Of a DNA stretch of 64,000 nt, positions 1-25,952 are shown piece by piece; the first letter of the stretch is position 1, and each line of letters opens with the position of its first letter. The stretch is taken from contig JBEKRZ010000003.1 in NCBI GenBank assembly GCA_049517435.1, forward strand, positions 2,453-66,452. Direction: 5' to 3'. The stretch is from Smithella sp. GTDB lineage: Bacteria; Desulfobacterota; Syntrophia; Syntrophales; Smithellaceae. The notes under the pieces are model-generated. The model ran no database searches and had not been told where the DNA came from. It was given only the letters and a program-made list of their open reading frames with translations. Both the position numbers and the translations under genes were made by a program.

Positions 1-455
1 ATTTCCTGAACCAGCGGCGTTATACCCGCTGTGGAACTCGGCGTGGCCATTAACTCGTCTACAGGCTGTCCCGCGTCTTCCACATAATCCGCCACGCGAG
101 CCCCCACCGCCAGGACTTTGCGGTTTTCTTTTTTCACGCCGGCGGCTTTGATGTAATCCAGCGCGAAAACGGAAATCTGCTCATTTAGTTGTCCGCATAA
201 ACCCTGATCGGAACCGAAAATTATCGCTCCCATGCGCTTAACAGCCGCGTCTTTGCTTTGCATCATCCCGCTCATTCGTTCCTTAAGCACAATTTGCAAT
301 CCCATTTCTACAGTCCGGTTGTAGTCGTTAAGAGACTCAACGGCCTTTTGATATTGCCGGATGCTCACGGCGGCCAGAGCCTTCATCGTTTTGACCACCG
401 ATAAAAGATCTCCCGCGCTTTTAATTCTTCTTTTCAGGGACTCAGTTGTTTGCAT
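1..455 (-). CDS. atpG: F/N-type ATPase gamma subunit (5' part of gene; runs off window start)
   Basis: Absent from the ORF track because it has no stop in the window. The minus-strand ATG at 455..453 translates to [42 protein letters not shown]..., a gamma-like N-terminus. It overlaps the atpA stop by 14 nt and takes the last position in the atpDCQRBEFAG order. Confidence 0.75.
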
Positions 456-2010
456 TTGCTTCCTCGACTTCTTCAAACGGAGCGATGGTCGGTTTGATTT
501 TATTCATGATGCTGTCACGATCCGCCATTTCCAGTTTTTTACCTTCTTCGATACGCCCGCACAATTCCGGCAATTGTTCGTTGACCGTTTGCAACAGGTG
601 TCCTTCCGCTTCGCGTATCTTATCGATCGGAACATGATCCAGGGCGCCGCCGGTCACTGACAACAGACTGGCAATTTGTTCTGACGCGCGCAAAGGCTTG
701 TACTGCCCCTGCTTCAGAATTTCACGAACGCGCCAGCCTCTCTCCAATACGCGCTTCGTGCTTTCGTCAAGCCTGGTGCCAAAACGAGAGAACGACTCCA
801 GCTCTTCAAATTGCGAGTAAGACAGGCGCAAATCTCCAGCTACGGAACGATAAGCGGGCAACTGAGTTTTGCCGCCAACACGCGAAACGGATTTGCCGAC
901 ATCCACCGCAGGCAAAATTCCTTTGTTGAAAAGCACCGGCGAAAGATAAATCTGTCCGTCCGTGATGGAAATCAGATTGGTCGGAATGTAAGACGACATG
1001 TCCTGCGCTTCCGTTTCGGTAACGGGCAAGGACGTCAACGACCCGCCGCCCAATTCCGGCCGCATATGCGTGGAACGCTCCAACAGACGCGAGTGGATAT
1101 AAAATATATCGCCGGGGAAAGCTTCACGCCCCGGTGGCCGCCGTAAAAGCAGCGACACTTCCCGGTAAGCACGGGCATGCGATGTCAGATCATCATAGAC
1201 AATCAACACATCACGTCCCTGCTCAACAAAATATTCTCCCATGCTTGTGGCCGCGTAAGGCGCGATAAACTGCAGGCCCGGCGTGTCTTCGCCCGTGGCC
1301 ACAACGACGATACACGATCCCATCACACCATGATCGCGCAATTCGGCAATCACTTTGGCCACATCGGCGCTTTTCTTGCCGACGGCGCAATAAATGGAAA
1401 TAATACCCGTTTCTTTTTGGTTGATAATTGTATCCACGGCAATGGCTGTTTTGCCGGTCATTCTGTCGCCCAAAATCAATTCGCGCTGGCCGCGGCCAAT
1501 GGGAATAAGCGCGTCAATGACTTTAATGCCGGTTTGCAGGGGCACTACCACAGGCGCGCGGTCCATAACCGCCGGCGCGGGTCTTTCGACCGGATAGCGC
1601 ATGACTGTATTGACCTCGCCCAGACCGTCGAGCGGACGTCCGAGAGGATCAACCACTCTTCCCAAAAGGCCGTCTCCCACCGGCACATCCAGAACGCGCT
1701 TGGTGCGGTGCACTTCCGAACCCACCTGCAGGTTTTCACTGGGGTCCAGAAGAATCACACCGATCTCCTCCGGATCAATATTAAACACCAGCCCCATATA
1801 GTTACCTGCAAAACGAACCAGTTCCTCTGCGCGGATGTGCGGCAGGCCGCCGACTCTGGCAATATCGCGTCCGACAAAATTGACCGTGCCGATTTCATAT
1901 TGTTTCAGTTCAGGATTCTGCTCGTCCAGAACCTTTTCCATGGTATCAAACGTATCGTCCAGGAAAGTCTTTAATTCCTTATTTTCCAATTGGCTAGACT
2001 CTTGATTCAT
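442..2010 (-). CDS. atpA: ATPase alpha subunit
   Basis: 522 aa. Walker A GDRMTGKT. Alpha-subunit similarity along the whole length ([21 protein letters not shown]). Confidence 0.95.
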
Positions 2011-2187: not shown

Positions 2188-2958
2188 TCATGCCGCGTGC
2201 GCCTCTTTCTGGAGCGTTTCAGTCAGACTTTCCACCAGCGTCTCCAGATACTCATTGAGACTCCAGGCGATCTTATGCCCATTCACACGCAATTCAATGC
2301 CTGATACTATCTCCGGCTGCCTCATATACTGCAGAGTAAAACCGTTGGTTATCTGCTTCTTCAGAACTTCCTCGATTTGCGCCTGCCGGGACGCGGAAAT
2401 GCTAAAAGCGCTCTGGATAATCACCCGATTGCCGCCGCCCCTGATGGCATTGCGCATCTGAATGCTTTTTTCTTTATCGAGCGCTTTGATCCGGCGGATG
2501 AATTCATCCACAATCCGTTCCTCCAGATCGGCGTCCGCCAGATCGCGCAAGGCTTTACGCGCCGTGGCATATAATTGCTTGGCCACCCGCTGGCGCAAAT
2601 CGGAGAAAAAAGCGTCCTTTTCGCGAACCAGCATATCCTGCCAGCGCACCTTGACCTGATCAACTTCCTCGCGGACTTTTTCCATCAGTTCTTTACGCTT
2701 GGCATCAGCGGCCATTGTCGCCTCATTGAGCATCTGCTCTTTTGCTTCGTTGAGCAACTGGTTGCGCTTTTCATAAAGCCCGGCAGCCTCGGTTGCCTTG
2801 ACTTTCATATCTTCGGCGTCGGCAAACCGCGCGGTAATCTTCGCTTCTCTATCGTCCATCGCTTTAATGATTCGCCCATAAAGAAAGCGCTTCAGCAGAT
2901 AGACAAGCAAAAGAAAATTGAAGATCTGGCAAAACAAAACAAACCAGTCGATATGCAT
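2188..2958 (-). CDS. atpF: ATPase subunit b, long form with delta/OSCP-like C-terminal region
   Basis: 256 aa. N-terminal TM helix (WFVLFCQIFNFLLLVYLL) followed by a long charged helix. The C-terminal ~90 aa (RVIIQSAF...IELRVNGHKIAWSLNEYLETL) resembles the delta C-terminal domain. The operon has no separate delta gene. Confidence 0.8.
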   Translation of the reverse strand: MHIDWFVLFCQIFNFLLLVYLLKRFLYGRIIKAMDDREAKITARFADAEDMKVKATEAAGLYEKRNQLLNEAKEQMLNEATMAADAKRKELMEKVREEVDQVKVRWQDMLVREKDAFFSDLRQRVAKQLYATARKALRDLADADLEERIVDEFIRRIKALDKEKSIQMRNAIRGGGNRVIIQSAFSISASRQAQIEEVLKKQITNGFTLQYMRQPEIVSGIELRVNGHKIAWSLNEYLETLVESLTETLQKEAHAA

Positions 2959-2961: not shown

Positions 2962-3237
2962 TCATCCCCCTGCCTTTACAAAGTAGCCCCAGAAAGGATT
3001 CGCAAAGATCACGATCATGGAAATAACAAAGCAGTAAATCGCGATAGATTCGATCATGGCGAGTCCCACAAATAGTGTTCTGGTCAAAGAATTTCGCTCA
3101 TCGGGTTGCTGGGCAATGGCGGCAAGAGCCTGCTGAATTGCCCGTCCTTGTCCCAGGGCCGGTCCGATTGAACCGATCGCCATCGTTAAACCCGCCGCAA
3201 TAATTGAAGCCACTGCAACTAAACTCAATTTATCCAT
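2962..3237 (-). CDS. atpE: ATPase c subunit (rotor ring), Na+-type ligand pattern
   Basis: 91 aa two-helix hairpin. Q in ALGQGR, and E-S...Y in MIESIAIY. This matches the Q32/E65/S66/Y70 Na+ ligand pattern of the Ilyobacter tartaricus c subunit, with I at the T67 position. Confidence 0.9.
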   Translation of the reverse strand: MDKLSLVAVASIIAAGLTMAIGSIGPALGQGRAIQQALAAIAQQPDERNSLTRTLFVGLAMIESIAIYCFVISMIVIFANPFWGYFVKAGG

Positions 3238-3272: not shown

Positions 3273-3992
3273 TTATATGCCTTCGCTAACCTCTGTTTTA
3301 TGTGACTCCTCCTGGGCGCTCGCTGCCGAAGCGATATACACCATAGAAAGTATGGCAAAAATATATGCCTGGATCACCCCAATCAAAAGCCCCAGTGCCT
3401 GCATGATGACAGGGAATAACAGAGGCGTGACAGAAAGAAGAATTCCGATAACCTTCTCATGACTCATGATATTGCCAAAAAGCCGGACTGTCAGGGCGAG
3501 CGTTCTGGATATTTCCCCCATGACATGGAAAGGGAAGAAGATGAAATTGGGTTGAAAATACTCTTTCAAATAATGGAACACGCCGTTGCGCGAGATGCCG
3601 TAATAAGGAACTGCGACAAATACACACAAAGCAAGCGCCGCCGTTGTCATGAGCGATGCCGTGGGCGGAACATAACCGGGAATAATAGCCAGAACATTGG
3701 AGAGACAAATGAAAAGAAATAGAGTGCCGATCAAGGGAACATAGTCATCGACTCCCTTCTTGGTCATTTCCCTGATTTCTCCGCGGATAGTAGAAATAAC
3801 CACTTCGAGGAAATGCTGCCAACGGGAAACATTGATGCCGGTGGAAAGATTGCGCGTTATCAGCAAGGACCCGCTCACCAGAATTGCCATAACCAGCCAT
3901 GTATAGACAAGGGTTACATTTATAGTGATAAAACCCCATGTCCAGAGAATAACCTGATCTGGGCTGATTTGATTAATGGCTACTATTTCCAT
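3273..3992 (-). CDS. atpB: ATPase a subunit
   Basis: 239 aa polytopic membrane protein with the stator Arg motif LTVRLFGNIMSHE. Confidence 0.9.
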   Translation of the reverse strand: MEIVAINQISPDQVILWTWGFITINVTLVYTWLVMAILVSGSLLITRNLSTGINVSRWQHFLEVVISTIRGEIREMTKKGVDDYVPLIGTLFLFICLSNVLAIIPGYVPPTASLMTTAALALCVFVAVPYYGISRNGVFHYLKEYFQPNFIFFPFHVMGEISRTLALTVRLFGNIMSHEKVIGILLSVTPLLFPVIMQALGLLIGVIQAYIFAILSMVYIASAASAQEESHKTEVSEGI

Positions 3993-4032: not shown

Positions 4033-4341
4033 CTAAATCGCTTTATCCATTCCCAGGCGTCGTGTGAGAATCATCCTCATTAAAATGAAACCGATAAGCG
4101 CCATGGCCAGACGCTCCCAATGCTCTCCGCCCATAACTAAATAAAATCCCGCCATCACCACCGCCATCCGTATAATAAAGCTTCCGAGCATCAGGCGCGC
4201 GGGACTATGAGCTTTCGGCAACTGACGCACTGTTCGCCACAGAGCGGTAAAATAAAACGCTCCAAGGGCTAGACCAGCGGCAAAAGCTACGATTGTCGGA
4301 AACAACATTGCCGGATTAAGTATGCTGTTCATCATCTTCAT
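4033..4341 (-). CDS. atpR: N-ATPase AtpR-like small membrane protein
   Basis: 102 aa with about 3 TM helices and an Arg within a helix (ALWRTVRQL). It sits between atpQ and atpB, as in N-ATPase operons, and overlaps atpQ by 26 nt. Confidence 0.7.
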   Translation of the reverse strand: MKMMNSILNPAMLFPTIVAFAAGLALGAFYFTALWRTVRQLPKAHSPARLMLGSFIIRMAVVMAGFYLVMGGEHWERLAMALIGFILMRMILTRRLGMDKAI

Positions 4342-4669
4342 CTTCCTCGATAATTTTGCTGCGAACTTTTTTTACCCAGTATGCCGCATTGATGCATCCC
4401 AACACCACACCGATAATCAGAAACATCAACGCCCAGGAATAACGGCTCGGCCAAGTACGGTCAATCCACAGACCCAGCGCAACCCCGATCAGTGTGGGGA
4501 TAGCTACAGACCAGCCGACAATGCCGAACATACCCAGACCGAACCAGACGGTCTCGTCTTTGTGCCGAAGTGCCTTCTGCCGCAGCGCCTCTTTTTTGGC
4601 CACCTGTTCGGTGAAATGATTTGCCATTTTTTGGCGTCGCGTGCTTGGTGTTCGTCTTATTTCAACCAT
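4316..4669 (-). CDS. atpQ: N-ATPase AtpQ (AtpI/AtpZ-like) membrane protein
   Basis: 117 aa ORF; the more likely start is MANHF at 4627. Two TM helices WFGLGMFGIVGWSVAIPTLIGVALGLWIDR typical of ATPase_gene1-type proteins. Position follows atpC. Confidence 0.7.
   Translation of the reverse strand: MVEIRRTPSTRRQKMANHFTEQVAKKEALRQKALRHKDETVWFGLGMFGIVGWSVAIPTLIGVALGLWIDRTWPSRYSWALMFLIIGVVLGCINAAYWVKKVRSKIIEEDEDDEQHT

Positions 4670-4931: not shown

Positions 4932-4946
<15 letters not shown>
4712..4946 (-). repeat. H-family modular hairpin tract, copy R2 (inside the ATPase operon, between atpC and atpQ)
   Basis: The minus strand reads GTGGAACTAAAATAGTAATGAGACTCACTGACTATAGGAAG..., colinear with the start of R5. 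Shared modules are AACGAGCATAGCGAA, AAATTTCAC-N12-GTGAAATTT and CCAATAGCCAAAGGCTATTGGAAATTATCCC. Its first 15 nt encode the last 4 codons and the stop of atpC. Confidence 0.75.
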
Positions 4947-6705
<1,759 letters not shown>

Positions 6706-6730
6706 CTATCGAATTTATGCTGTAAATTTC

Positions 6731-7558
6731 TCAATACAGCTCTTCTACTTTTTTAATACCTTCCATAAGCCAGCCTATTACTCCGCCGATTACAACAAAC
6801 ATAACCGCTCGGACAACATCTCCTAAAATGGGCATCCCCGTCAAGAAAAGTGCATGACTGGTTAAAATCAGAACACCAAGAAAAATGGCTGCAAAGATGC
6901 CTTTTTTACCCCACCAGATAGAAGCCAGAATAATTGGGATATAGAAAAGATGAGTGAAAAGCCCTTCTGTTTTAAGGGTTGCATGATAATGATACGTGAG
7001 GATACAGGCGACAAGGAGAAAGATTGTCATCAACCCGACTTTATAGGTGCTACCTTTACCACCAATCTGCCCCTTCATCATCAGTGTTTTAATAGCGCCA
7101 AGTCTTCTCTCCACACTGCCAATGATTAACTCCTGATACTTTTCCGTGACCTGGTAGGATACATAATCGAACATGAGAATTGTTCGATTCAGACTCTCCA
7201 CCGCCTGCTGTTTTTCCAGAGCGGTCACGAAAATTCCCTGAAATTCCGCGTAAAGCCACAGATTCCGTCTCATTAACATCAGCGCGTAAATAGCTTCATG
7301 CAGGGGTGTCTTTTTCCTGTAGAAATCCTCTGCGTACTTCCAGGAAAAAGTTTTGGCCTCTTCATAGGAGTTTTCAGCCAGAGACATTCGACGAAAAAGC
7401 TTGTAAAAATCGATCCCCTGCTCAATCACCATGTCTTTCGGCAGAGAGTGATACGAGGGCGTTCTGTCATGCTTCATCACATCTGCCGCCCATTGTCTGG
7501 CAATACCCTCAGCCTTGCTTTCTATAAGGTCAAAAAGTTTTGTGGCATAAGCTTGCAT
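6731..7558 (-). CDS. Sensor-like protein: N-terminal RsbRA-N/globin-fold-like domain plus C-terminal 4-TM module
   Basis: 275 aa. The N-terminal ~145 aa is paralogous to the next gene upstream, with shared runs PLHEA.YAL.LMRR, WLYAEFQ and RTILMFDY. The C-terminal half is hydrophobic (FLLVACILTYHY, IPIILASIWWG, IFLGVLILTSHALF, VMFVVIGGVIGWL). Only 34 nt upstream of atpD. The domain name is from memory and is tentative. Confidence 0.55.
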   Translation of the reverse strand: MQAYATKLFDLIESKAEGIARQWAADVMKHDRTPSYHSLPKDMVIEQGIDFYKLFRRMSLAENSYEEAKTFSWKYAEDFYRKKTPLHEAIYALMLMRRNLWLYAEFQGIFVTALEKQQAVESLNRTILMFDYVSYQVTEKYQELIIGSVERRLGAIKTLMMKGQIGGKGSTYKVGLMTIFLLVACILTYHYHATLKTEGLFTHLFYIPIILASIWWGKKGIFAAIFLGVLILTSHALFLTGMPILGDVVRAVMFVVIGGVIGWLMEGIKKVEELY

Positions 7559-7672
7559 TCTTTCATCCCTCTTTCCATAGAGTTACTATGATAAAAAAAT
7601 CTCACTTAAGTGAATCCGTCCTGTCAATTCCGTTACTTGGAATCCCCCGGTTCCTGCTGGAGGGGGCTCCAC

Positions 7673-8143
7673 TTACTGTGTATTCTTTATCGCCAGCAAT
7701 TCCAGTTTCATTAATTTCCAGAATTGTCTGGCAATAACATACATAATGTAGTCGAACATGAGAATTGTCCGGCTAAGACTTCCCACCGCCTGTCTGTGCT
7801 CTACCTCTGCATTAAACATGGCTTGAAACTCCGCATATAACCACATATGCCTCCTCATCAGAATCAGAGCATACAACGCTTCGTGCAGAGGAATTCCCTC
7901 TCTATATCTTTCCTCCGCGTACTTTTCGAAAATTTCTTCCGCCTGTTCATACGGTGATTCATGAAAAAACATCATTTGAAAATTACTGTAAAAATCTTTG
8001 GCTTGAAGAATAATTTTATCCTCAGATGCCTCATGATAGGTATAAGTTTTCGCGTTAGTCTTCACATCCTTTGCCCATTGCTTGACGATTGTTTCAGCGT
8101 TTTTCTGAGTTAAATCTATGAGTTTTGTGGTAAAAGCTTTCAT
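7673..8143 (-). CDS. Soluble RsbRA-N/globin-fold-like sensor domain protein (paralog of 6731..7558)
   Basis: 156 aa, alignable end to end with the N-terminal half of the downstream gene. Preceded by a sigma54-type promoter and an AAGGG ribosome-binding site. Confidence 0.55.
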   Translation of the reverse strand: MKAFTTKLIDLTQKNAETIVKQWAKDVKTNAKTYTYHEASEDKIILQAKDFYSNFQMMFFHESPYEQAEEIFEKYAEERYREGIPLHEALYALILMRRHMWLYAEFQAMFNAEVEHRQAVGSLSRTILMFDYIMYVIARQFWKLMKLELLAIKNTQ

Positions 8144-8173
8144 CGCAACCCTTTCTTTTCAATAATCAGAAAG

Positions 8174-8189
8174 AGCAATGGTCATGCCA
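8174..8189 (-). promoter_or_regulatory. sigma54 (-24/-12) promoter candidate
   Basis: The minus strand reads TGGCATGACCATTGCT, against the consensus TGGCAC-N5-TTGCW. It lies 31 nt upstream of the ATG at 8143. A sigma54-dependent activator gene lies immediately upstream on the same strand. Confidence 0.65.
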
Positions 8190-8514
8190 TAAAAAGTTTT
8201 TTTGTATTTTGATGTCTTCTTGCTTCTTGATAAAAGTCCGAATTAACTTCTATCCGTCATTTCCGCTAGGGCGATAATCCAGTATTGTTGAATGGTTATG
8301 AATTCCCGTTCAAATGGAATTGCACACTTGATAAATAAATAATTTAATCGTCTTTTGCCGGACATTCATGAATTATTAATAGAGGAAATAAACGGAAATA
8401 CGAAATAAACGTCGCCAGAAAAGTCGCTCGGAGAAATTTGCGAACATTAAAAATAACAATAGTCTCTAAATACAGGAGTTTAGCAATAGAGACTTTTATG
8501 TCACCCCAAATAAC

Positions 8515-9882
8515 TTAAATGTCGCGAAGAATTGATTCCCATTGGGGATTTTTTTTCATGGCGGCGATCTTCCGCTGAAGTTGCCTGACGGTTATTCCAA
8601 GAATTTGCGCGACCTTGCCGCGATCGCCATTAGCATTGGTCAAAACATAGACCAGATGCGCTTCATCGTTTTCTTTCAAGGTGCATAATTGGCGCGCTAA
8701 AGGAGATGGAGCAGTTGACATCATCCCAAGATGACCAGGCAGAATAAGATTGGAGTCGGTTAGCAAAACGGCGTTATCAATAATTTGAGACAATTCTCGT
8801 ACGTTGCCGGGGTAATCTCTACCGTTTAATAAATCCATGGCTTCCGGGCTGAAACCGAGAACCTTTTTATTATAATTACTGCATGCCTTGCGCAGAAAAT
8901 GGGACGCGAGCAAAGGAATCTCTCCCTGTCTTTCTCTCAAAGGAGGCAGGTGGATATGGACTGATTTCAGCCGGTAGAGCAGATCCAGCCTAAAATTGCC
9001 CTTCTGGCAGGCCTTTTCAATATTACTATTGGAAGCGGATATGACTCTTACGTCCACCCAGATCGGCTTTGATGCGCCGAGAGGGTAGAAAGATTTTTCT
9101 TCCAGCACACGGAGTAGTTTTGTTTGCAGGCCTATCGGCAGTTCCCCTATTTCGTCAAGGAAAAGAGTCCCGCCGTCCGCCTGTTCAAAATAGCCCCGAT
9201 GCGGCGTCTCCGCGCCTGTAAAAGCTCCTTTAGCGTGACCAAAAAACTGGCTTTCAAACATGCTGGCCGGAATAGCGCTGACATTAACGGCGATGAATGG
9301 GCCCTGGGGCATCGGTCCGGCCTGATGAATGCCTTTGGCGACAAGTTCCTTGCCGGTTCCGGATTCTCCGGTAATCATTATGGGATTGCCGCCTCCGGCC
9401 ATAACCTGAGCATAGGACAGGATGGAACACATCTGCGGACATTGGGTGATAATCCCGGAGAAGGCATTCGGAATTTTCTTTTTATTATCCCCAGCTGTCG
9501 CCGATAAACCTATAAGTAAACCCCTGTGTTCATAGGCTCTCTTAATGGCCAGAAAAAGGAGATCGTTATCCACCGGTTTGACAAGATAATCGTAAGCGCC
9601 CAGACGAATCGCTTTAACCGTGGTAGGAATATCATCAATGGCTGTGAGAATGATGAATTCTGTATGGGGACGATAAGGTCTTGTTGATTCCAGAACCTGC
9701 AACCCCTCAACTTCCGGCATAAGCAGATCAAGAAGCACAATATCAAAATCCGTTTCTTTAATTTTGGTAATGGCATCTCTGCCGTTATTACAGATATCAA
9801 CGTTCCTGATGCCCCGCCATTTGAGCAGACGCTTCACCGAATTCAGGGCTACTTCTTCATCATCAACAATCAGAATTCTCAT
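8515..9882 (-). CDS. sigma54-dependent response regulator (NtrC family)
   Basis: 455 aa. Three parts: a receiver domain (DIVLLDLLMPEVEG), an AAA+ sigma54-interaction domain (GESGTGKE, GAFTGA) and a C-terminal Fis-type HTH (VAQILGITVRQLQRKI). Confidence 0.9.
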   Translation of the reverse strand: MRILIVDDEEVALNSVKRLLKWRGIRNVDICNNGRDAITKIKETDFDIVLLDLLMPEVEGLQVLESTRPYRPHTEFIILTAIDDIPTTVKAIRLGAYDYLVKPVDNDLLFLAIKRAYEHRGLLIGLSATAGDNKKKIPNAFSGIITQCPQMCSILSYAQVMAGGGNPIMITGESGTGKELVAKGIHQAGPMPQGPFIAVNVSAIPASMFESQFFGHAKGAFTGAETPHRGYFEQADGGTLFLDEIGELPIGLQTKLLRVLEEKSFYPLGASKPIWVDVRVISASNSNIEKACQKGNFRLDLLYRLKSVHIHLPPLRERQGEIPLLASHFLRKACSNYNKKVLGFSPEAMDLLNGRDYPGNVRELSQIIDNAVLLTDSNLILPGHLGMMSTAPSPLARQLCTLKENDEAHLVYVLTNANGDRGKVAQILGITVRQLQRKIAAMKKNPQWESILRDI

Positions 9883-12023
9883 AATCTCTGCCTTCCCATT
9901 TCAAGAATTATATTTTGTAATTGCAGCATGCTGAAAGGTTTCTTAAGTAGATAATCAGGTTTGCCCGTCATTATTCCTTCCGGTTTCCCGGCCAGAGGGT
10001 CGGATGAGTAAAAAATTACGGATAAAAGAGGAAAACGTTCTTTGATTTTTTTCACAAGCTCCCATCCGTTTATTGCCGGCAGATTTATTTCCGAAATGAA
10101 AGTGTCCACCTCGGGATGGGTCTCAAGATAAGAAATGACATCTTCGCAGGTATCTTCGAAACAGCAGCACCAATCAAATACGTCAACAAAACTCATTTTG
10201 ATCTCATTGAGATAAGAGGCGTCACCGTCACAGCAAAGTATTGCCGGACGAATATTTATCTGTGTTTTGGCATCAAGAGGAAGGTAGATGGAAAACCGGC
10301 TGCCTTTATTGGGGCGGGAAAGAACTCCTATTATTCCCCGATGCTCTTTGATGAGCCCATAAGATATGGAAAGCCCAAGACCAGTTCCTTCCCGATCCCG
10401 GCGAGTCGTAAAAAAAGGTTCAAAGACATGATCCAGCACTTCTTTTTCCATGCCGATTCCGTTGTCTTCAATTTCAATCAGAATCGCGTTCAATCTTTCA
10501 ATACTTCTGGCGGTAATAATTATTTTTCCTTTTCTGTCGGGCGTAATGGATTGATGCGCGTTAATCAGCAGATTGGCGATTACCTGTTCAATTTTTTGAA
10601 AATGTCCCTGAATGGTCGGCAGATTGCTGTCTATGTAAAGATCGATGCGGGAGACAGTTTTACGTACCTGAGCGCCTACAATAATTAATACTCCCTGAAT
10701 GACTTCCTCGATTTTAACCGGTTTTTTTTGTATTGTTTCATCCGCCCTGGCAAATTCTTTTAATCCCGTAATAACGCGCTTGATTCGTTGAGAAGCTATT
10801 TTGAACTCTTCAATGATTTCTTTCATATTTGTGCAGACTTCCACATAACCGATGCCCTTATCACCCCAATCCGGATTGGAGGCTCCGTCACTGGCCAAAA
10901 TCGGTTCAACGGCAGTCCACATTTCCTCCAGAAGAGTAATGTTGTTGGCAATAAAACTGACCGGATTGTTTATTTCGTGAGCGACTCCCGTCACAACTTC
11001 ACCCAGCGCTTTTAGTTTGTGGGATTGAATCATCTGCTGCAGACGGAGTTCCCCTTCCTGACGTATTCTTTTGTCCTCTGTGATATCCTGCCATGCTCCG
11101 ACCATATAACTTCGGGAGCGATTGCTTGGTTTAATCAAGCGGCGATGATCGGAAAACCAGCGATAAGAACTGTCGGCAGTCTGAAACCTGTATTCAAACT
11201 GGTGAGTTCCTTTGTGCGTGGCCGATTTTAACTCTTTGAGTATTTCTTTTTGTTCGTCAGGATGGATGTGCTCCTGCCAAAAAGTTGGATTATCCGTGAA
11301 TTGGGCGGGAGTGTATCCGGTAATTTCTTTGACGCGGTTGCTGACAAAAGTGATTGTTAAATTCTCATCGGCGTTGCAGGTATAGGAAACAATAGGAAGG
11401 AACTCGAGGATAAGGGACAAGTGATCTGTAGTTTCTTTCAGGGCTTTGTTGGTTTTCGCTAACTTTTGCGTGCGTTCTTTTACTTTAATTTCTAGCTCTT
11501 CATGAGCTTTTAATAACGCCTCTTCCGCCATTTTTGCCTGAGTTATATCTTCAAGCGTTTCTACTGCTCCAATAACGGCACCCTTGGAGTTTCGGATAAC
11601 GGCGGCGGTAAAGCGCAGCCATCGCCCCTTTTTTCCCAGTTCCGGAAAAAAATCGGTGGCCTCGTAAGCGCCGTCAATCAATTTTGACTTTATGAATTTA
11701 CCAGAATACCATCGGGGGATCTCTTTCTGATATTTATCGACAAGCAAATCGGCCATGCAGGGTCTTGCCGTTTTATAAAACGCCCTCCATTGCTGTCCGG
11801 TACCTACTACCTCTTCGGACTTGATTCCGCTTAGTTCTTCCAGAGCTTTATTCCAGTAGATAATCAGATGGTCCTTCCCGATTATAAACGCGGGAATAGG
11901 AGAGCTTCCAATAATGCTTTTCAGGGATTGCTGGCCGTTGCTGAAAACTTCCCGCACCCATACATTTTCGCTGTATTTGGGTTTCTTCTTTCTATCTTTG
12001 TGTTGGCAATCTTTATCTTTCAT
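9879..12023 (-). CDS. PAS-domain sensor histidine kinase with C-terminal receiver-like domain
   Basis: 714 aa. Two PAS-like regions, an H-box VTGVAHEINNPVSF, and ATPase N/G boxes (DNGIGM, GTGLGLSI). The C-terminal ~115 aa is receiver-like but has E in place of the phospho-Asp (DTFISEINLP). A 4-nt overlap with the response regulator gene suggests co-translation. Confidence 0.85.
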   Translation of the reverse strand: MKDKDCQHKDRKKKPKYSENVWVREVFSNGQQSLKSIIGSSPIPAFIIGKDHLIIYWNKALEELSGIKSEEVVGTGQQWRAFYKTARPCMADLLVDKYQKEIPRWYSGKFIKSKLIDGAYEATDFFPELGKKGRWLRFTAAVIRNSKGAVIGAVETLEDITQAKMAEEALLKAHEELEIKVKERTQKLAKTNKALKETTDHLSLILEFLPIVSYTCNADENLTITFVSNRVKEITGYTPAQFTDNPTFWQEHIHPDEQKEILKELKSATHKGTHQFEYRFQTADSSYRWFSDHRRLIKPSNRSRSYMVGAWQDITEDKRIRQEGELRLQQMIQSHKLKALGEVVTGVAHEINNPVSFIANNITLLEEMWTAVEPILASDGASNPDWGDKGIGYVEVCTNMKEIIEEFKIASQRIKRVITGLKEFARADETIQKKPVKIEEVIQGVLIIVGAQVRKTVSRIDLYIDSNLPTIQGHFQKIEQVIANLLINAHQSITPDRKGKIIITARSIERLNAILIEIEDNGIGMEKEVLDHVFEPFFTTRRDREGTGLGLSISYGLIKEHRGIIGVLSRPNKGSRFSIYLPLDAKTQINIRPAILCCDGDASYLNEIKMSFVDVFDWCCCFEDTCEDVISYLETHPEVDTFISEINLPAINGWELVKKIKERFPLLSVIFYSSDPLAGKPEGIMTGKPDYLLKKPFSMLQLQNIILEMGRQRL

Positions 12024-13455: not shown

Positions 13456-14031
13456 CTAGAATTTAACCTTGACTGCTTCTTTCGCTTCTTTTGGCGCGTC
13501 AAAGAATGCTGCTTCTTTAAAACCAAACATGCCGGCAAGCAAATTAGCCGGGAATGATTTAATTGTCTGATTATAAATTTTTACAGCTTCATTGTACCTC
13601 ATTCTTTCCACGGCGATTCTGTTTTCCGTCCCCGCCAGTTCGTCCTGCAGGTGCATGAAATTTTGGTTGGATTTCAAATCAGGGTATTTTTCTACAACCA
13701 CCATCAGTCTGCTCAGAGCGCCGGACAATTCGTTATTAGCATTAATTTTATCAGGAACATTTCCCGCGCCACCAACTTTAGCACGGGCGTTGGTCACTTC
13801 CACCATAACATCTTTTTCTTGTTTGGCGTAACCCTTGACAGTTTCCACCAGATTGGGAATCAAATCGAAACGCCGTTGTAATTGATTTTCCACCTGCGCC
13901 CACGAAGTTTTAACTGTCTGATCCAAATTGACAAATTTATTGTAGTTGCCCGCGAAAAAAGAATAAGCGGCGATAGCCAGAAAAACAATTACTGCCAGCA
14001 CAATGATTAAAGTTTTCTTTTTTGAATCCAT
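13456..14031 (-). CDS. lemA: LemA family protein
   Basis: 191 aa. N-terminal TM anchor followed by LemA-typical WAQVENQLQRRFDLIPNLVETVKGYA. Confidence 0.85.
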   Translation of the reverse strand: MDSKKKTLIIVLAVIVFLAIAAYSFFAGNYNKFVNLDQTVKTSWAQVENQLQRRFDLIPNLVETVKGYAKQEKDVMVEVTNARAKVGGAGNVPDKINANNELSGALSRLMVVVEKYPDLKSNQNFMHLQDELAGTENRIAVERMRYNEAVKIYNQTIKSFPANLLAGMFGFKEAAFFDAPKEAKEAVKVKF

Positions 14032-14057
14032 TTTTTTCTTTCCTCCTGCATTATTTT

Positions 14058-14195
14058 AAATTTATAATGAGACTTAATTTTTACAATCCCGCAGGATTGC
14101 GGGAGAAGTAAAAATTTTTAGTCGAATTATCCCGATACCAAAGCGTATCGGGATTAAATTCCAAATATGGTCTTAGGTTTTGCCCAAGAGTAATG
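14058..14195 (+). repeat. H-family modular hairpin element, copy R3 (degenerate termini)
   Basis: Starts AAATTTATAATGAGACTT. Contains hairpins TCCCGCA-GGAT-TGCGGGA and AATTATCCCGATAC-CAAAGC-GTATCGGGAT. Ends TTCCAAATATGGTCTTAGGTTTTGCCCAAGAG. Confidence 0.6.
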
Positions 14196-14207
14196 CCTTT
14201 TTACAAT

Positions 14208-14942
14208 TTATAATTCGTCAACTATGTTGCAAATCTTTTCGACTTCGTACAGATATTTTTTGAAGACACCAGCGACTTCTTCGCCAGAGAGCTTATCCAC
14301 ACCTTCTTTAATGTCGGCACAAGATAAGAATACTTCTGCGTCAACCGCAAAAAGTTTAGCCACTTCTTTTATTGTATCGCGTCTCTTATGCGGCGCCGAT
14401 CCCTGCTTTAAATAAAGCAGGGCATTGAAGATGGAAATAAAAGCCGTAAATGACCGGGTGATCAGCTGTTTCAATTGCCGCGAGTTACCTTCCGTTTCCA
14501 GATAACCCTGGCGGAGCAAAATCAGTTTGCCCTTCAGTTCCTTTTCAATTTGCAGACGTAAATCTTCCGGTTTAAAATTTAATTGTTCCAAAATATTTTC
14601 GCCATAAATTAAAATGTGGCGGTTTTTCATATTCAAAAACTCTATCGGATAACAATCCAGAGAAGACTCAATAAATGCCTTTGTCATTACCAGAGGCACG
14701 GCCACACGGCACTTTTTCCAATGTTTAACTGTGGCCAAAGAATCTTCCAGCCTGTTGATCGCTTCCGGTGTCAGAACAACGAGCAGGTTAATGTCCGATT
14801 TTCCTTTTACATAAGAACCACCGGCAGCGCTCCCGTAAAGAATAAGAGAAATCAACTCCTTGCCGAATATTTTCTGATAGTCTTGAGTTAAAGGAACAAA
14901 AACATCTTCTGGTTTATTTGGTATTTTTGCCATTTCATACAC
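14208..14942 (-). CDS. Nucleotidyltransferase-domain protein (Pol-beta superfamily)
   Basis: 244 aa. The minimal NTase motif YGSAAGGSYVKGKSDINLLVV is followed by a helical C-terminal domain. The real start may be ATG at 14933 (MAKIPNK). Confidence 0.65.
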   Translation of the reverse strand: MYEMAKIPNKPEDVFVPLTQDYQKIFGKELISLILYGSAAGGSYVKGKSDINLLVVLTPEAINRLEDSLATVKHWKKCRVAVPLVMTKAFIESSLDCYPIEFLNMKNRHILIYGENILEQLNFKPEDLRLQIEKELKGKLILLRQGYLETEGNSRQLKQLITRSFTAFISIFNALLYLKQGSAPHKRRDTIKEVAKLFAVDAEVFLSCADIKEGVDKLSGEEVAGVFKKYLYEVEKICNIVDEL

Positions 14943-14956
14943 CCGATTAATTTATT

Positions 14957-15063
14957 GTTGAAACTCTAATTCTAATGAAACTCAGATATTACAAACGTAG
15001 TGCAGTAATATCTGCAAATTGAATTATCCCACGTGTGAAGCTAAGGGGGACTATACCTGTGAT
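14957..15063 (+). repeat. H-family modular hairpin element, copy R4 (shortest, both termini)
   Basis: GTTGAAACTCTAATTC ... hairpin CAGATATTAC-N13-GTAATATCTG ... AATTATCCC ... GGGGGACTATACCTGTGATT. The 3' end abuts the TPM gene stop codon. Confidence 0.7.
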
Positions 15064-15851
15064 TAAAAATCTCCCCCGGCGCCGCCGCCGCCGCTCATGC
15101 CGCCACCAAAACCACCAAATCCTCCGCCGAAACCGCCGCCATCACCTTTACCACCGCCACGGCCGCCGCTCAATAACAGAAGCAATATCCAAGGAAGCAT
15201 TGATCTGCCTGTTCTTGTGCCTAAAAGCAAAGCAGCCGCAATCAGAAAAAAAATGATTTGAAAAACGTTAATGCTTTTTTGCTTGACCCGGGCATTGGTC
15301 CGGTATGGCGCGGGCGAACCACTCAACTGAACACCGGCATCTTTGGCAATAATAGAGCTAAGAACATACACCGTATCATAAAAAGCCTGACCATAATTAC
15401 CTGCCTGGAGTTGCGGTTTTAGATATTTGTCTCTAATTTCGCCGACTAAACCATCCGGCAATATACCCTCTACGCCGTAACCGGTTTCAATCCTGATTTT
15501 GCGTTCCTTAAGCGTCAAAAATACTAAAACGCCCTTGTCTTCGCCTTTTTTGCTGATACCCCACGCCTTATAAAGGCCATTGACATAAAGACTGGTTTCT
15601 TCCCCTTCTCCGATAGTAGGGACCGTTACCACAACAACCGCCGTGCCTGTTTTTTCTAAGACTTCACGCGACAGGGCTTCAATTTTAGCGGCGTTATCCT
15701 GATCAATGATATTGGCAAAATCATTGACGGCGCCACGCGGCAAAGGGTACTTATCGGCTGCAAATATGGCATTGGTTATCAGCGCCATAAACAGCGCGAC
15801 GGCCAGAGCCAGTATTATTTTATATCTATTGCTTAAAGATTTATTTTTCAC
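15063..15851 (-). CDS. TPM-domain (YgcG-like) membrane protein with Gly-rich tail
   Basis: 262 aa. Signal/anchor, then a TPM-like region (VNDFANII...VVVVTVPTIG...GVLVFLTLKERKIRIETGYG), a TM helix, and a GGGFGGGFGGFGGG tail. Confidence 0.8.
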   Translation of the reverse strand: MKNKSLSNRYKIILALAVALFMALITNAIFAADKYPLPRGAVNDFANIIDQDNAAKIEALSREVLEKTGTAVVVVTVPTIGEGEETSLYVNGLYKAWGISKKGEDKGVLVFLTLKERKIRIETGYGVEGILPDGLVGEIRDKYLKPQLQAGNYGQAFYDTVYVLSSIIAKDAGVQLSGSPAPYRTNARVKQKSINVFQIIFFLIAAALLLGTRTGRSMLPWILLLLLSGGRGGGKGDGGGFGGGFGGFGGGMSGGGGAGGDF

Positions 15852-20416: not shown

Positions 20417-20522
20417 ACATAGATAAAGGCAAACATGGGGTAATCCGGCAACGCAAAACCACGTGTCCGAAAGTATTCGTTAAGAGGATACACGGAAAGA
20501 CGGGTTACCGAAGTGCATATGG
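20417..20522 (+). promoter_or_regulatory. Candidate c-di-GMP-I (GEMM-I) riboswitch in the adhesin leader
   Basis: Ordered blocks: AAAGGCAAAC (20425-20434); a short hairpin UGGG-GUAA-UCCG with a GNRA loop (20436-20447); ACGCAAAAC (20451-20459); a hairpin CGUGUCC...GGAUACACG (20462-20494); and GGGUUACCGA (20502-20511). From memory, Vibrio cholerae Vc2 has GGGCAAACC / GAAA hairpin / GACGCAAAGCC / P3 hairpin / GGGGUUACCGA. Confidence 0.55.
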
Positions 20523-23500: not shown

Positions 23501-23656
23501 ACGCCTGTCTATTCCAATAACCACGGAGCCACGTGGACCTATGTGCCCTCTGGCACGTACGACGGCAATGTTACTAACTGGCAGATTCCCATGAGCGGTA
23601 CGATGAACGCTAACGGGGCTAATTTTACTATCAAATATAAGGTGCGCGTCAATTAG
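20558..23656 (+). CDS. Large secreted surface protein: N-terminal lectin/ConA-like domain plus DUF11-type repeat domains
   Basis: 1032-aa ORF. The probable start is ATG at 20657 (MATRIMLLLMASAIWLVCAGASYGA, a signal peptide). GWLRLTNNSGNQTGFAYN is lectin-like. DUF11-like units are present (DLGITKSV...GDGIRYTVTARNYGPNNVTATGVGIVDNVPATITG; LTVVKSSSPS...VIYTVLVTNTGAGTATSVVINDIL). GC is about 55% against 30-38% in the flanks (hand-counted 60-nt samples). Confidence 0.75.
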   Translation: MGNKSVFTGVVLIICYGKKLVDQASSSLNNWRIMATRIMLLLMASAIWLVCAGASYGAIIINAPMTDTNSAGWVLGGTPTSSLLTGNGTIDPAGSGWLRLTNNSGNQTGFAYNTTSFDLSQGVLVQFDYATWGGTGADGYSVYLFDAGVSTFNIGAFGGSLGYAQKLPPAVTPAVPGISGGYVGVGVDEYGNFSNPTEGRYLGPGAYPNTVTVRGPVVGFGGGAIGDTINASSYPWIATSANNGSLWYNGTTRPDQTSTNYRKVVILVSPAPNPVVNAWIQFGYNQPLTQMITNQALPAISTSQLLHIGYAASTGGSTNYHEIRNLLVTSLNTSTGIDLGITKSVLDTTTSSTTITAVGDGIRYTVTARNYGPNNVTATGVGIVDNVPATITGVTWTCAVVSGSPAGTSCGAASGSGNNLNTTANLPYGGAVTYTINGTVGASAPSTLSNTVILVIPGSVVDYNSANNSATASIAVTSNLSTSTKTWQDLNGGDQNPNDVLQFTINLKETAGAAASGVSVTDTLPLTLTNLTVISFPAGATNNSTSSALNITGVSVPANGSATIVFQATIANGTAAGTLINNTATITNPNGAIASPSSPTITVSASQIPATGNKPLYLYGGAASPYKMSRYPTPGTPTTAAIAANGGSAVWNGNWNGLASSTLPLQLNDTITSATATLYINGSSNNTRNVEVRLYCSSNAAAYASWPSAALATNPPVPPATPTAYIFNLTTLNGGFTFPATCATPNYWVLQVFNRTTTAGRTITVVPVSGTNISQVLLASNNVINVNSVNNYSAPYPSVSTPAAGYYVGSQWVYVRALVSDPFGSYDITSASVTIKDPNNNVVVTAAPMSVPTGGDSGAATKYYEYAYQIPSAGPAGYWTASVTVKEGTENTVSHTAAGAFQVVLPPLLTVVKSSSPSPSVSPGGVVIYTVLVTNTGAGTATSVVINDILSPYVQWGLNSYGTGIAFQFTDGTPASGLTLGTPVYSNNHGATWTYVPSGTYDGNVTNWQIPMSGTMNANGANFTIKYKVRVN

Positions 23657-25940: not shown

Positions 25941-25952
25941 AAAAGTTCTCCT

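What the first reader, a model, noticed from the sequence alone, without database searches (positions are those of the whole stretch)
6731..12023. Histidine kinase / NtrC-type regulator, sigma54 promoter and two paralogous sensor-domain genes stacked directly upstream of the N-ATPase
All elements are on the minus strand, in this order: a PAS histidine kinase (4-nt overlap with the next gene); a sigma54-dependent response regulator; a 370-bp spacer; TGGCATGACCATTGCT (-24 GG / -12 GC) 31 nt before the ATG at 8143; a 156-aa sensor-like protein; a 275-aa paralog carrying 4 TM helices; and, 34 nt later, atpD. I found no other promoter-like sequence between 8143 and atpD. N-ATPase expression may therefore be driven by this two-component system through sigma54. 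The two globin-fold-like proteins could be co-expressed accessory or sensor subunits. Regulation of N-ATPases is essentially uncharacterised, and I am not aware of such paralogs being described with these operons.
Basis: partly seen in the sequence, partly recalled or inferred. Interest (0 to 1): 0.55.

Follow-up and report, generated by a model that had tools for sequence, protein, structure and literature searches.

The report
Sigma-54 switch and globin-like sensors on N-ATPase
In a Smithella-like syntrophic bacterium and about 70 related species, a second, probably sodium-pumping ATPase sits behind a conserved sigma-54 promoter with an adjacent two-component switch, and is preceded by two small haem-less globin-type sensor genes not previously linked to such pumps.

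Summary
On the minus strand lie a PAS histidine kinase, an NtrC-type activator (GAFTGA present), a 371-bp spacer, a near-consensus sigma-54 promoter, two paralogous genes (156 and 275 aa, 50% identical over 145 aa) and atpDCQRBEFAG.

- **Conservation:** 74 of 79 related Syntrophales loci have S gene(s) directly before atpD.
- **Promoter:** the exact motif occurs once per locus, always before the first S gene, in 51 loci.
- **Enhancer:** a pair of GAC-N6-GTC dyads about 21 bp apart lies 210-390 bp upstream in about 60 loci.
- **Co-transcription:** the gap to atpD is only 10-55 nt.
- **S proteins:** they model as globins (pLDDT 93). They match the haem-less sensors pXO1-118/pXO2-61 of Bacillus anthracis and have no invariant histidine. 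The 275-aa form adds four membrane helices.

One clade replaces the two-component system with a PAS-LuxR regulator but keeps the S genes. Three N-ATPase operons from other phyla lack the whole module.

My verdict is a sigma-54 operon that co-produces haem-less globin sensors with the pump. What the sensors do is unknown. No transcript or binding data exist. This is a new variant of known kinds, of moderate interest.

The parts
9879..12023 (-). Cytoplasmic PAS-PAS histidine kinase with a C-terminal receiver-like domain (714 aa)
   Evidence: Pfam finds PAS_4, PAS_3, HisKA, HATPase_c and a weak Response_reg. The H-box AHEINNP is present, and the acceptor position of the receiver-like domain reads Glu by manual alignment. 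The closest NCBIfam model is AtoS, far below its cut-off. The first PAS (residues about 26-177) recurs at 55-62% identity in the PAS x3 proteins of related loci.
8515..9882 (-). NtrC-type sigma-54 activator and response regulator (455 aa); its start overlaps the kinase gene by 4 nt
   Evidence: Pfam finds REC, Sigma54_activat (E 3e-61), AAA_lid_14 and HTH_8. GAFTGA and the Walker A motif GESGTGKE are present. The closest NCBIfam models are AtoC and NtrC, below their cut-offs.
8512..8523 (-). Enhancer-like dyad 1, GACATTTAAGTT; it overlaps the regulator's stop codon
   Evidence: This is the degenerate copy in the window. It reads GACATTTAAGTC in most relatives. A search allowing one mismatch finds this pair only once in 64 kb.
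8491..8502 (-). Enhancer-like dyad 2, GACATAAAAGTC, 21 bp from dyad 1
   Evidence: A pair of GAC-N6-GTC sites 21-23 bp apart occurs in 61 of 79 loci: 63 pairs in 1.3 Mb, with under 1 expected by my estimate. The pair lies 210-390 bp upstream of the first S gene. The background rate for single sites is 0.39 per kb.
8402..8413 (-). Possible third, degenerate site, GACGTTTATTTC
   Evidence: This is a conserved block in an alignment of 19 upstream regions. It is a full GAC-N6-GTC in L009. The evidence is weaker than for dyads 1 and 2.
8174..8189 (-). Sigma-54 promoter TGGCATGACCATTGCT (-24 GG, -12 GC); the predicted transcription start is near 8163
   Evidence: It is the only exact match in the window. 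The same pattern occurs exactly once, on the coding strand just upstream of the first S gene, in 51 related loci. It lies 25-36 nt from the ATG in most of them.
7673..8143 (-). S156: a soluble, stand-alone haem-less globin-fold protein (156 aa)
   Evidence: The AlphaFold model has pLDDT 93 and is all-helical. The best PDB matches are sensor globins and pXO1-118, pXO2-61 and RsbR, with TM-scores of 0.61-0.75. The family profile matches pXO2-61 at E 9e-7. Pfam HisK_N and RsbRD_N score just below their cut-offs. The family has no invariant His.
6731..7558 (-). S275: the same globin domain (residues 1-159), a linker and four membrane helices (about 171-266), with no output domain
   Evidence: It is 50% identical to S156 over 145 aa. 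The model has pLDDT 84, and its best PDB matches are 3pmd and 3pmc. A weak DUF4118 match on the membrane part is seen in 8 of 36 family members.
6697..6730 (-). 34-nt gap with the ribosome-binding site AAGAGGAG before atpD
   Evidence: The equivalent gap is 10-55 nt in nearly all loci, and 15-20 nt in many. There is no sigma-70-like or sigma-54-like match here.
5302..6696 (-). atpD, N-ATPase beta subunit
   Evidence: TIGR03305 (alternate F1F0 beta) scores 828.5 bits against a cut-off of 752.
4932..5312 (-). atpC, epsilon subunit
   Evidence: Pfam ATP-synt_DE_N.
4316..4669 (-). atpQ
   Evidence: PF09527. TIGR02230 scores 123.8 bits against a cut-off of 46.7.
4033..4341 (-). atpR, the hallmark gene of N-ATPases
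   Evidence: PF12966 AtpR, E 2e-25. TIGR03165 scores 82 bits against a cut-off of 55.5.
3273..3992 (-). atpB, a subunit
   Evidence: Pfam ATP-synt_A.
2962..3237 (-). atpE, c subunit
   Evidence: Pfam ATP-synt_C. The sequence has GQG and ESIAIY, so the Gln, Glu, Ser and Tyr sodium ligands are present, but Thr67 is replaced by Ile (residue comparison from my own knowledge of the Ilyobacter tartaricus c subunit).
2188..2958 (-). atpF, the long b subunit (256 aa)
   Evidence: The ORF is listed and is conserved in all full-length loci.
442..2010 (-). atpA, alpha subunit
   Evidence: The ORF is listed and is conserved in the loci.
1..479 (-). 5' part of atpG (gamma), cut by the window start
   Evidence: tblastn with the gamma subunit of L001 gives 94% identity over 159 aa.

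Best explanation
**The unit.** S156, S275 and atpDCQRBEFAG form one sigma-54-dependent operon.

**How it is switched on.** The adjacent cytoplasmic PAS kinase phosphorylates the NtrC-type activator. The activator binds two (perhaps three) GAC-N6-GTC dyads about 300 bp upstream. By DNA looping it opens the sigma-54 promoter at 8189-8174. Transcription starts near 8163 and runs through both S genes into the pump genes. The N-ATPase is therefore an inducible pump, probably exporting Na+, and not a housekeeping enzyme.

**The S proteins.** They are haem-less globin-fold sensor proteins of the HisK_N / pXO1-118 kind. One is soluble and one is anchored by four membrane helices. Neither has an output domain, so they must act through protein contacts.

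**My preferred sub-mechanism.** The two globin domains dimerise, and the pair reports a membrane or small-ligand cue back to the PAS-based regulator. That would be a feedback or partner-switch loop like PspA/PspBC on PspF. I give this about 0.4. Direct control of the pump comes second, at about 0.3.

**Shown and inferred.** Shown: the gene content, the domain and fold assignments, and the conservation of synteny, promoter, dyads and short gaps. Inferred: promoter use, activator binding to the dyads, co-transcription, ion specificity and every statement about what the S proteins do.
For: - **Domains and motifs:**
- **Promoter:** one exact match in the window and one per locus in 51 relatives, always before the first S gene.
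- **Dyad pair:** 63 pairs in 1.3 Mb across 61 loci, upstream of an S gene. It is also present in loci where the kinase and regulator are not adjacent (L034, L036-L038, L062).
- **Second promoter unit:** L048 has two dyad pairs, each upstream of an S gene. A sigma-54-like motif (TGGTAC...TTGCT) was checked only before the one next to atpD.
- **Co-transcription:** the gap from the last S gene to atpD is 10-55 nt with a strong ribosome-binding site. No sigma-70-like site lies on the minus strand between 8143 and 6697, and there is no convincing terminator there.
- **Synteny:** 74 of 79 loci; 43 have the regulator within 700 nt upstream on the same strand.
- **Globin fold and relation to pXO1-118/pXO2-61:**
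- **No invariant His:**
- **Link between S proteins and PAS signalling:** a PAS x3 gene paired with a 170-aa S gene lies near the operon. In L056 it sits in a row with the kinase and regulator genes. The PAS repeats are 55-62% identical to the kinase's first PAS.
Against: - No transcript, transcription start, binding or phenotype data exist for any of these loci.
- rpoN is not in the window.
- The dyads lie unusually far from the promoter (about 300 bp).
- Eight loci (L041-L047, L059) have no sigma-54 motif or dyads. They carry a PAS x3-LuxR regulator instead, so this circuit is not the only way the operon is controlled.
- An internal promoter inside S275 cannot be excluded.
- A weak 4-bp hairpin followed by T7 (7613-7593) after S156 could attenuate read-through.
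- S275 is decayed or absent in several species (L066, L076, L079 and the S156-only loci), so it is dispensable.
- The kinase has no globin domain, so the signal-titration mechanism proposed for pXO1-118 cannot simply be carried over.
Confidence: 0.72

Rival explanations
1. The S proteins are regulatory or assembly partners of the rotary ATPase itself. They would bind the enzyme, with S275 contacting the membrane sector (a, c, AtpQ, AtpR), and gate or stabilise it in response to a ligand. They would not feed back on transcription.
For: The S genes stay fused to atpD when the regulator type changes from the two-component system with sigma-54 to PAS-LuxR. S275 has a membrane anchor and no output domain. 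Two distant homologues are the last gene of V/A-type ATPase operons that differ in gene order. These are L080 (P0152) and L085/L086 (P0346, a Desulfobacteraceae MAG).
Against: Closer relatives of P0346 (P0385, P0381, P0345) and six other family members are not next to any ATPase. N-ATPase operons in Picosynechococcus, Legionella and Polymorphobacter have no S gene, so the enzyme does not need one. S275 is lost in several Syntrophales. Characterised members of the fold act in signalling.
Confidence: 0.3
2. There are two transcription units. The sigma-54 promoter serves only the S genes, and atpD-G is transcribed from its own promoter inside or after S275.
For: A weak hairpin plus T-run follows S156 in the window and its closest relatives. 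Some clades have strong GC hairpins in the S156-S275 spacer (z below -2 in 9 of 53). Internal promoters cannot be ruled out from sequence.
Against: The gap between the last S gene and atpD is 10-20 nt in many species and carries only a ribosome-binding site. No promoter-like match lies on the minus strand in 6697-8143. The hairpins sit between the two S genes, not before atpD. They lack U-runs in the GC-rich cases, and the spacer fold in the window is not significant (z -0.62). The order and spacing hold across an order-level clade.
Confidence: 0.1
3. The S proteins are haem-binding gas or redox sensors (O2, NO, CO), like globin-coupled sensors.
For: Among the best fold matches are haem sensor globins: DosC, AfGcHK, BpeGReg and GsGCS (TM-scores of about 0.66-0.75). 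The hosts are strict anaerobes, for which oxygen sensing would be useful.
Against: No His is invariant in the family. H99 is present in 63% of members and is Asn in S275 itself; H37 is present in 52%. The sequence-level relatives are the haem-less pXO2-61 and pXO1-118 and the HisK_N and RsbRD_N families.
Confidence: 0.07

Closest known systems
N-ATPase operon atpDCQRBEFAG (Dibrova et al. 2010, PMC2881411)
   Same: The gene order is the same, AtpR and AtpQ are present, there is a long b subunit and no delta, and the beta subunit passes the alternate-F1F0 model. Syntrophus aciditrophicus is already listed as a host.
   Different: Here the operon is extended at its 5' end by one or two globin-type genes and placed behind a sigma-54 promoter with a dedicated two-component system. 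The papers found and read describe no regulators or extra upstream genes. Three N-ATPase operons from other phyla lack the module.
pXO1-118 / pXO2-61 (SkiA) and the BA2291 sensor domain of Bacillus anthracis; PDB 3PMD, 3PMC; Pfam HisK_N
   Same: These are also stand-alone, haem-less globin-fold sensor domains of about 150 aa, and they are the closest solved relatives by profile (E 9e-7) and by fold. They act on a histidine-kinase pathway (PMC5862856).
   Different: Identity is only 18-20%. The local kinase has no homologous globin domain to compete with. One paralog is membrane-anchored. The genes sit in an ATPase operon rather than on virulence plasmids. Fatty-acid and chloride binding by pXO1-118 is from my memory of Stranzl et al. 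2011, a paper that is not held in the library.
RsbR N-terminal domain / stressosome; Pfam RsbRD_N
   Same: It has the haem-less globin fold (2bnl among the hits). RsbRD_N matches 22 of 54 family members.
   Different: There is no C-terminal STAS domain, and no RsbS or RsbT genes are nearby.
Phage-shock system: sigma-54 promoter, PspF, PspA, PspB/C (my own knowledge)
   Same: A sigma-54 operon whose first products include a soluble protein and membrane proteins that could feed back on the activator. It is a useful working analogy.
   Different: There is no sequence or fold relation. Here the activator is a phosphorylated response regulator, and the effector is an ion pump.
KdpD/KdpE control of the Kdp P-type ATPase (my own knowledge)
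   Same: A two-component system lies next to an ion-pump operon and controls it. The membrane part of S275 weakly resembles the four-helix DUF4118 domain of KdpD.
   Different: Kdp uses a sigma-70 promoter and an OmpR-type regulator. The DUF4118 match is below the cut-off. S275 has no kinase domain.
AtoS/AtoC and ZraS/ZraR two-component systems
   Same: These are the best-scoring NCBIfam models for the kinase and regulator, and the domain architecture REC-AAA+-HTH_8 is the same.
   Different: The scores are far below the equivalog cut-offs (190 against 646, and 380 against 714). The sensor part (PAS-PAS, cytoplasmic) and the target operon differ.

Membership tests
N-ATPase (atpDCQRBEFAG) | Gene order D-C-Q-R-B-E-F-A-G on one strand | tested here: met
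   ORFs and Pfam; the start of atpG at the window edge.
N-ATPase (atpDCQRBEFAG) | AtpR present; it is the tell-tale gene | tested here: met
   PF12966, E 2e-25. TIGR03165 scores 82 bits against a cut-off of 55.5.
N-ATPase (atpDCQRBEFAG) | Beta subunit clusters with the alternate F1F0 enzymes | tested here: met
   TIGR03305 scores 828.5 bits against a cut-off of 752.
N-ATPase (atpDCQRBEFAG) | A second copy beside a normal F-type ATP synthase | not testable with these tools
   No other ATP synthase lies in the 64-kb window, and the rest of the genome is not available.
N-ATPase (atpDCQRBEFAG) | Full Na+ ligand set in the c subunit | tested here: inconclusive
   The Gln, Glu, Ser and Tyr equivalents are present, and the Thr67 equivalent is Ile. 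This is a manual comparison.
Sigma-54-dependent promoter | -24 GG and -12 GC elements with consensus spacing (TGGCAC-N5-TTGCW) | tested here: met
   TGGCATGACCATTGCT at 8189-8174.
Sigma-54-dependent promoter | Conserved in orthologous regions | tested here: met
   One exact match per locus in 51 loci, always before the first S gene. 57 of 70 loci score at least 14 of 15.
Sigma-54-dependent promoter | A cognate enhancer-binding protein and upstream activator sites | tested here: met
   An adjacent NtrC-type regulator with GAFTGA and a conserved GAC-N6-GTC pair. Binding itself was not tested.
Sigma-54-dependent promoter | Transcription start about 12 nt downstream of GC, dependent on RpoN | not testable with these tools
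   This needs 5'-RACE, RNA-seq or mutants.
NtrC-type bacterial enhancer-binding response regulator | Receiver with acceptor Asp, AAA+ domain with GAFTGA, and a Fis-type HTH | tested here: met
   (VLLDLLMP, GESGTGKE, GAFTGA, HTH_8).
Haem-less globin sensor domain (HisK_N / pXO1-118 type) | Globin fold | tested here: met
   Models with pLDDT 93 and 84. TM-scores are 0.72-0.75, normalised by target length, to 3pmd, 3pmc and sensor globins.
Haem-less globin sensor domain (HisK_N / pXO1-118 type) | Sequence membership in Pfam HisK_N or RsbRD_N at the gathering score | tested here: not met
   S156 scores 22.7 bits against 24.4, and S275 scores 19.1. Some relatives do better: the best E-values are 4e-8 for HisK_N (20 of 54 members match) and 1e-9 for RsbRD_N (22 of 54). 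The family profile matches pXO2-61 at E 9e-7. It is best treated as a sister group.
Haem-less globin sensor domain (HisK_N / pXO1-118 type) | No proximal His; no haem | tested here: inconclusive
   There is no invariant His in 54 diverse members, and H99 is Asn in S275. Absence of haem needs biochemistry.
Haem-less globin sensor domain (HisK_N / pXO1-118 type) | Acts on a histidine-kinase pathway | not testable with these tools
   There is only contextual support, from the gene pairs with PAS proteins and the kinase and regulator genes.
Stressosome RsbR | C-terminal STAS domain, with RsbS and RsbT partners | tested here: not met
   No STAS domain is present in S156 or S275, and there are no such neighbours.
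Globin-coupled sensor (haem) | Invariant proximal His and a fused output domain | tested here: not met
   No invariant His. There is no output domain; S275 ends after its fourth membrane helix.
DUF4118 (KdpD-type membrane domain) | Pfam match at the gathering score | tested here: not met
   17.6 bits against a cut-off of 28.4. 8 of 36 relatives match at E up to 0.01. This is a resemblance only.

The most novel reading that the evidence does not exclude
S156/S275 and their relatives would be a previously unrecognised class of ligand-sensing regulatory partners of 'secondary' rotary ion pumps. Haem-less globin proteins, one of them membrane-anchored, would bind the pump and switch it on or off in response to a small molecule or a membrane cue. 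They would have been recruited independently to N-type (Syntrophales) and V/A-type (Desulfobacteraceae) ATPase operons.
Probability: 0.2. Interest if true: 0.8.

Novelty: new variant of a known kind. Interest (0 to 1): 0.55.

Why it matters
N-ATPases are widespread second ATPases whose physiological role and regulation are still largely unknown. This work defines a clade-wide regulatory module for one of them: a sensor kinase, a sigma-54 activator, its likely DNA sites, a promoter and two co-transcribed sensor-type proteins.

The question 'when and why is the N-ATPase made?' therefore becomes testable. One can look for the signal of the PAS kinase and the ligand of the globin proteins. A cultured Syntrophus relative with omics data, S. 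aciditrophicus, has an N-ATPase, although whether its locus carries this module was not checked.

For syntrophs living at the thermodynamic limit, an inducible ATP-driven ion pump bears directly on how membrane potential is maintained. If the globin proteins prove to touch the enzyme, that would add a new kind of rotary-ATPase regulator.

Tried and rejected
- **Survey from the ATPase side.** I tried to scan metagenome contigs with AtpR alignments. The first alignment was too divergent. As a small substitute I examined three annotated plasmid-borne N-ATPase operons.
- **Terminator or structured RNA between the S genes.** The GC hairpin at 7666-7644 occurs only in the closest relatives. The spacer fold is not significant (z -0.62). 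Across the loci, structure is clade-specific. Rfam finds nothing in the locus.
- **A general link between S genes and rotary ATPases.** Two V/A-ATPase operons carry a homologue, but closer relatives of those proteins do not. I keep this as a lead only.
- **Haem globin.** Rejected, because no His is invariant.
- **Stressosome membership.** Rejected, because there is no STAS domain.
- **True hybrid kinase.** Doubtful, because the acceptor position reads Glu.
- **Literature.** Searches for any prior description of these genes with N-ATPases found nothing. The key pXO1-118 structure paper is not held.
- **Profile search.** The search with A2 listed only S275-like proteins and gave no new taxa.

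Full report
**1.

| Element | Coordinates (minus strand) | Notes |
|---|---|---|
| PAS histidine kinase | 9879-12023 | 714 aa |
| NtrC-type response regulator | 8515-9882 | 455 aa; 4-nt overlap with the kinase gene |
| Spacer | 8144-8514 | 371 bp |
| Sigma-54 motif TGGCATGACCATTGCT | 8189-8174 | 30 nt before the ATG at 8143 |
| S156 | 7673-8143 | 156 aa |
| S275 | 6731-7558 | 275 aa |
| Gap | 6697-6730 | 34 nt |
| atpD-C-Q-R-B-E-F-A and the start of atpG | down to the window edge | |

- The regulator has the receiver Asp context, Walker A and the GAFTGA loop that contacts sigma-54.
- The kinase has the H-box. It also carries a C-terminal receiver-like domain, and by manual alignment the acceptor position there is Glu.
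- The ATPase is N-type by curated models. The beta subunit scores 828 bits against a cut-off of 752, and AtpR and AtpQ also pass.
- S156 and S275 are 50% identical over 145 residues.
- The promoter motif is the only exact match in 64 kb, but a single match is not improbable by itself: 0.18 are expected, and 16 of 100 shuffles give at least one. No sigma-70-like match lies on the minus strand between 8143 and 6697.

**2. Comparative genomics turns a plausible motif into a conserved circuit**

The nearest homologues of S275 come from Smithella, Smithellaceae and Syntrophaceae MAGs. A scan of one genome per species returned 79 loci, all from Syntrophales. I mapped the window's proteins onto them.

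- 74 loci have one or two S genes directly upstream of atpD on the same strand.
- 54 have both S genes, 12 have only an S156-like gene, and 8 have only an S275-like gene.
- 43 have the regulator within 700 nt upstream on the same strand.
- Of the other five, L054 is cut by the contig end, L068 has an S gene downstream of the operon, and L067, L072 and L074 show no ATPase nearby.

The exact sigma-54 pattern occurs once per locus in 51 loci of up to about 20 kb. It is always on the coding strand just before the first S gene. In most loci it lies 25-36 nt from the ATG, and near-consensus variants occur in further loci.

Two 12-bp dyads, GACATTTAAGTC and GACATAAAGGTC, lie 21 bp apart at the very end of the regulator gene, and there is a weaker third block. 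A pair of GAC-N6-GTC sites at this spacing occurs in 61 loci. That is 63 pairs in 1.3 Mb, against fewer than one expected from the single-site rate of 0.39 per kb (the expectation is my estimate). The pair is also present where the kinase and regulator are not adjacent. L048 has two pairs, each upstream of an S gene. In the window, dyad 1 is degenerate (GTT for GTC), and a search allowing one mismatch finds the pair only here.

The gap from the last S gene to atpD is 10-55 nt in nearly all loci, often 15-20 nt, and carries only a strong ribosome-binding site.

**3. Variation that limits the claim**

- Eight loci (L041-L047, L059) have the order S275-S156-atpD, with no sigma-54 motif and no dyads. 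Upstream they carry a regulator made of three PAS domains and a LuxR-type helix-turn-helix. Its PAS repeats are 55-62% identical to the first PAS of the window's kinase. The same sensory module therefore seems to be coupled to two different outputs.
- S275 is decayed in L066, L076 and L079 and absent from several S156-only loci.
- N-ATPase operons on plasmids of Picosynechococcus PCC 7002, Legionella anisa and Polymorphobacter have no S gene, kinase or activator.

The module is therefore a Syntrophales elaboration and not a general property of N-ATPases.

**4. What the S proteins are**

- Pfam gives only sub-threshold matches to HisK_N and RsbRD_N. These matches recur in 20 and 22 of 54 diverse relatives.
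- The family is small. It has 205 clusters at 50% identity among 1.84 billion proteins, and most members are stand-alone proteins of about 150 aa.
- A profile of the family matches the B. anthracis sporulation inhibitor pXO2-61 at E 9e-7, and pXO1-118 more weakly.
- The S156 model is confident (pLDDT 93, pTM 0.87). Its best PDB matches are sensor globins (DosC, AfGcHK, BpeGReg) and the haem-less globins pXO1-118, pXO2-61 and RsbR, with TM-scores of 0.61-0.75.
- No histidine is invariant. H99 is present in 63% of members and is Asn in S275. Haem binding is therefore unlikely.
- S275 is the same domain followed by a linker and four membrane helices, and it ends there. Its best structural matches are again 3pmd and 3pmc.
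- The membrane part weakly resembles the KdpD-type DUF4118 domain.

Neither protein has an output domain, so any function must run through protein contacts.

**5. Clues to their role point two ways**

Towards signalling:
- The characterised relative pXO2-61 (SkiA) affects sporulation and resembles the sensor domain of sporulation histidine kinases (PMC5862856).
- A third paralog of about 170 aa is paired with an output-less PAS x3 protein near the operon in several genomes.
- In L056 the row PAS x3, S, kinase, regulator lies divergent from S156-S275-atp.

Towards the pump:
- The S genes stay fused to atpD whatever the regulator.
- One paralog is membrane-anchored.
- Two distant homologues (30-31% identical to S156) are the last gene of V/A-type ATPase operons that differ in gene order. 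These are L080 and L085/L086, the latter from a Desulfobacteraceae MAG.

The V-type link is not general, however. Three closer relatives of the Desulfobacteraceae protein and six other family members lie in unrelated contexts. I therefore treat direct action on the pump as a live but minority reading.

**6. Most likely mechanism**

The operon S156-S275-atpDCQRBEFAG is transcribed from a sigma-54 promoter. That promoter is activated by the adjacent PAS kinase and NtrC-type regulator through the upstream dyads. This makes the pump inducible. The c subunit has the Gln, Glu, Ser and Tyr sodium ligands, but Thr67 is replaced by Ile, so sodium specificity is probable and not certain.

The S proteins are haem-less globin sensors made together with the pump. 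My preferred reading is that they dimerise through their globin domains and feed a membrane or ligand cue back to the PAS-based regulator, by analogy with PspA/PspBC and PspF (my own knowledge). All of this rests on sequence and conservation; nothing has been measured.

**7. Novelty**

The N-ATPase, sigma-54 circuits and haem-less globin sensors are each known. Their combination, with the conserved promoter and dyads, is not described in the papers found. I rate it a new variant of known kinds with moderate interest. It gives a concrete handle on the open question of N-ATPase regulation. It also carries an outside chance of revealing a new kind of rotary-ATPase partner.

**8. The rest of the window**

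The remaining genes are ordinary chromosomal genes. There are no tRNAs. A c-di-GMP-I riboswitch lies at 20418-20512, before a large surface-protein gene.

Noticed in passing
window 20418-20512 (+): A c-di-GMP-I riboswitch (Rfam RF01051, 48.3 bits against a gathering score of 35) lies 45 nt upstream of a 1032-aa ORF (20558-23656). That ORF has DUF11 and lectin-like domains and is probably a c-di-GMP-controlled surface or adhesin protein.
   Followed up: no
L080 3158-3598; L085 and L086 9001-9474: Distant S-family homologues (30-31% identical to S156) are the last gene of V/A-type ATPase operons. The orders are ...D-I-K-S in L080 and C-I-K-F-E-A-B-D-S in a Desulfobacteraceae MAG. Closer relatives of these proteins (P0385, P0381, P0345) are not next to an ATPase.
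   Followed up: partly
L001 18912-20306 plus the gene from 20394; L057 18608-20029 and 20112-20624; L056 8277-6889 and 6783-6268: There is a conserved gene pair: an output-less protein of three PAS domains (about 465 aa) followed by a third, soluble S paralog (about 170 aa). It lies either after atpG or in a row with the kinase and regulator genes, divergent from the S-atp operon. The PAS repeats resemble the first PAS of the kinase.
   Followed up: partly
L041-L047, L059 (for example L041 7730-9628): One Syntrophaceae clade has the S genes in swapped order and no sigma-54 motif or dyads. It has a PAS x3-LuxR (GerE) one-component regulator in place of the kinase and NtrC pair.
   Followed up: partly
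window 9879-10150 (-), kinase residues about 624-705: The kinase's C-terminal receiver-like domain appears to have Glu where the phospho-accepting Asp should be (FISEINLP against the usual LLDxxMP). It may therefore be a pseudo-receiver. The Pfam score is just under the cut-off (29.6 against 30.2).
   Followed up: no
window 7644-7666 and 7593-7613 (-): The S156-S275 spacer holds a GC-rich hairpin found only in the closest relatives (L002, L003, L070). It also holds a weak 4-bp hairpin followed by T7. Other clades have different, sometimes very strong, hairpins at the same place (z below -2 in 9 of 53 spacers). This could set the ratio of S156 to the downstream products.
   Followed up: partly
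L066 1878-2191; L076 10466-10884; L079 10469-10641: S275 is reduced to fragments (a pseudogene) in some Smithella species and absent from others. The membrane-anchored paralog is therefore dispensable, while S156 is kept.
   Followed up: partly
window 24513-28326 (-): A cluster encodes a NiFe(Se)-hydrogenase large subunit-like protein, an Oxidored_q6 small subunit and a 604-aa NuoG/molybdopterin-type iron-sulfur protein. It is probably a hydrogenase or formate-dehydrogenase module typical of syntrophs.
   Followed up: no
window 44938-49421 (+): A 713-aa ORF with no Pfam match is followed, without a gap, by a 780-aa GAF-PAS-HD-GYP (HD_5) protein, a likely c-di-GMP phosphodiesterase.
   Followed up: no
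window 13456-15851 (-): A LemA gene, a 244-aa ORF with no Pfam match and a TPM-domain gene lie in a row, as in the widespread LemA-TPM membrane cluster of unknown function.
   Followed up: no
L097 and L098 10001-10486: A further Syntrophus S-family paralog (161 aa) sits after archease and RtcB, close to the replication-origin genes (dnaA, dnaN, gyrBA). The family is therefore expanded in Syntrophales and is not confined to ATPase loci.
   Followed up: no
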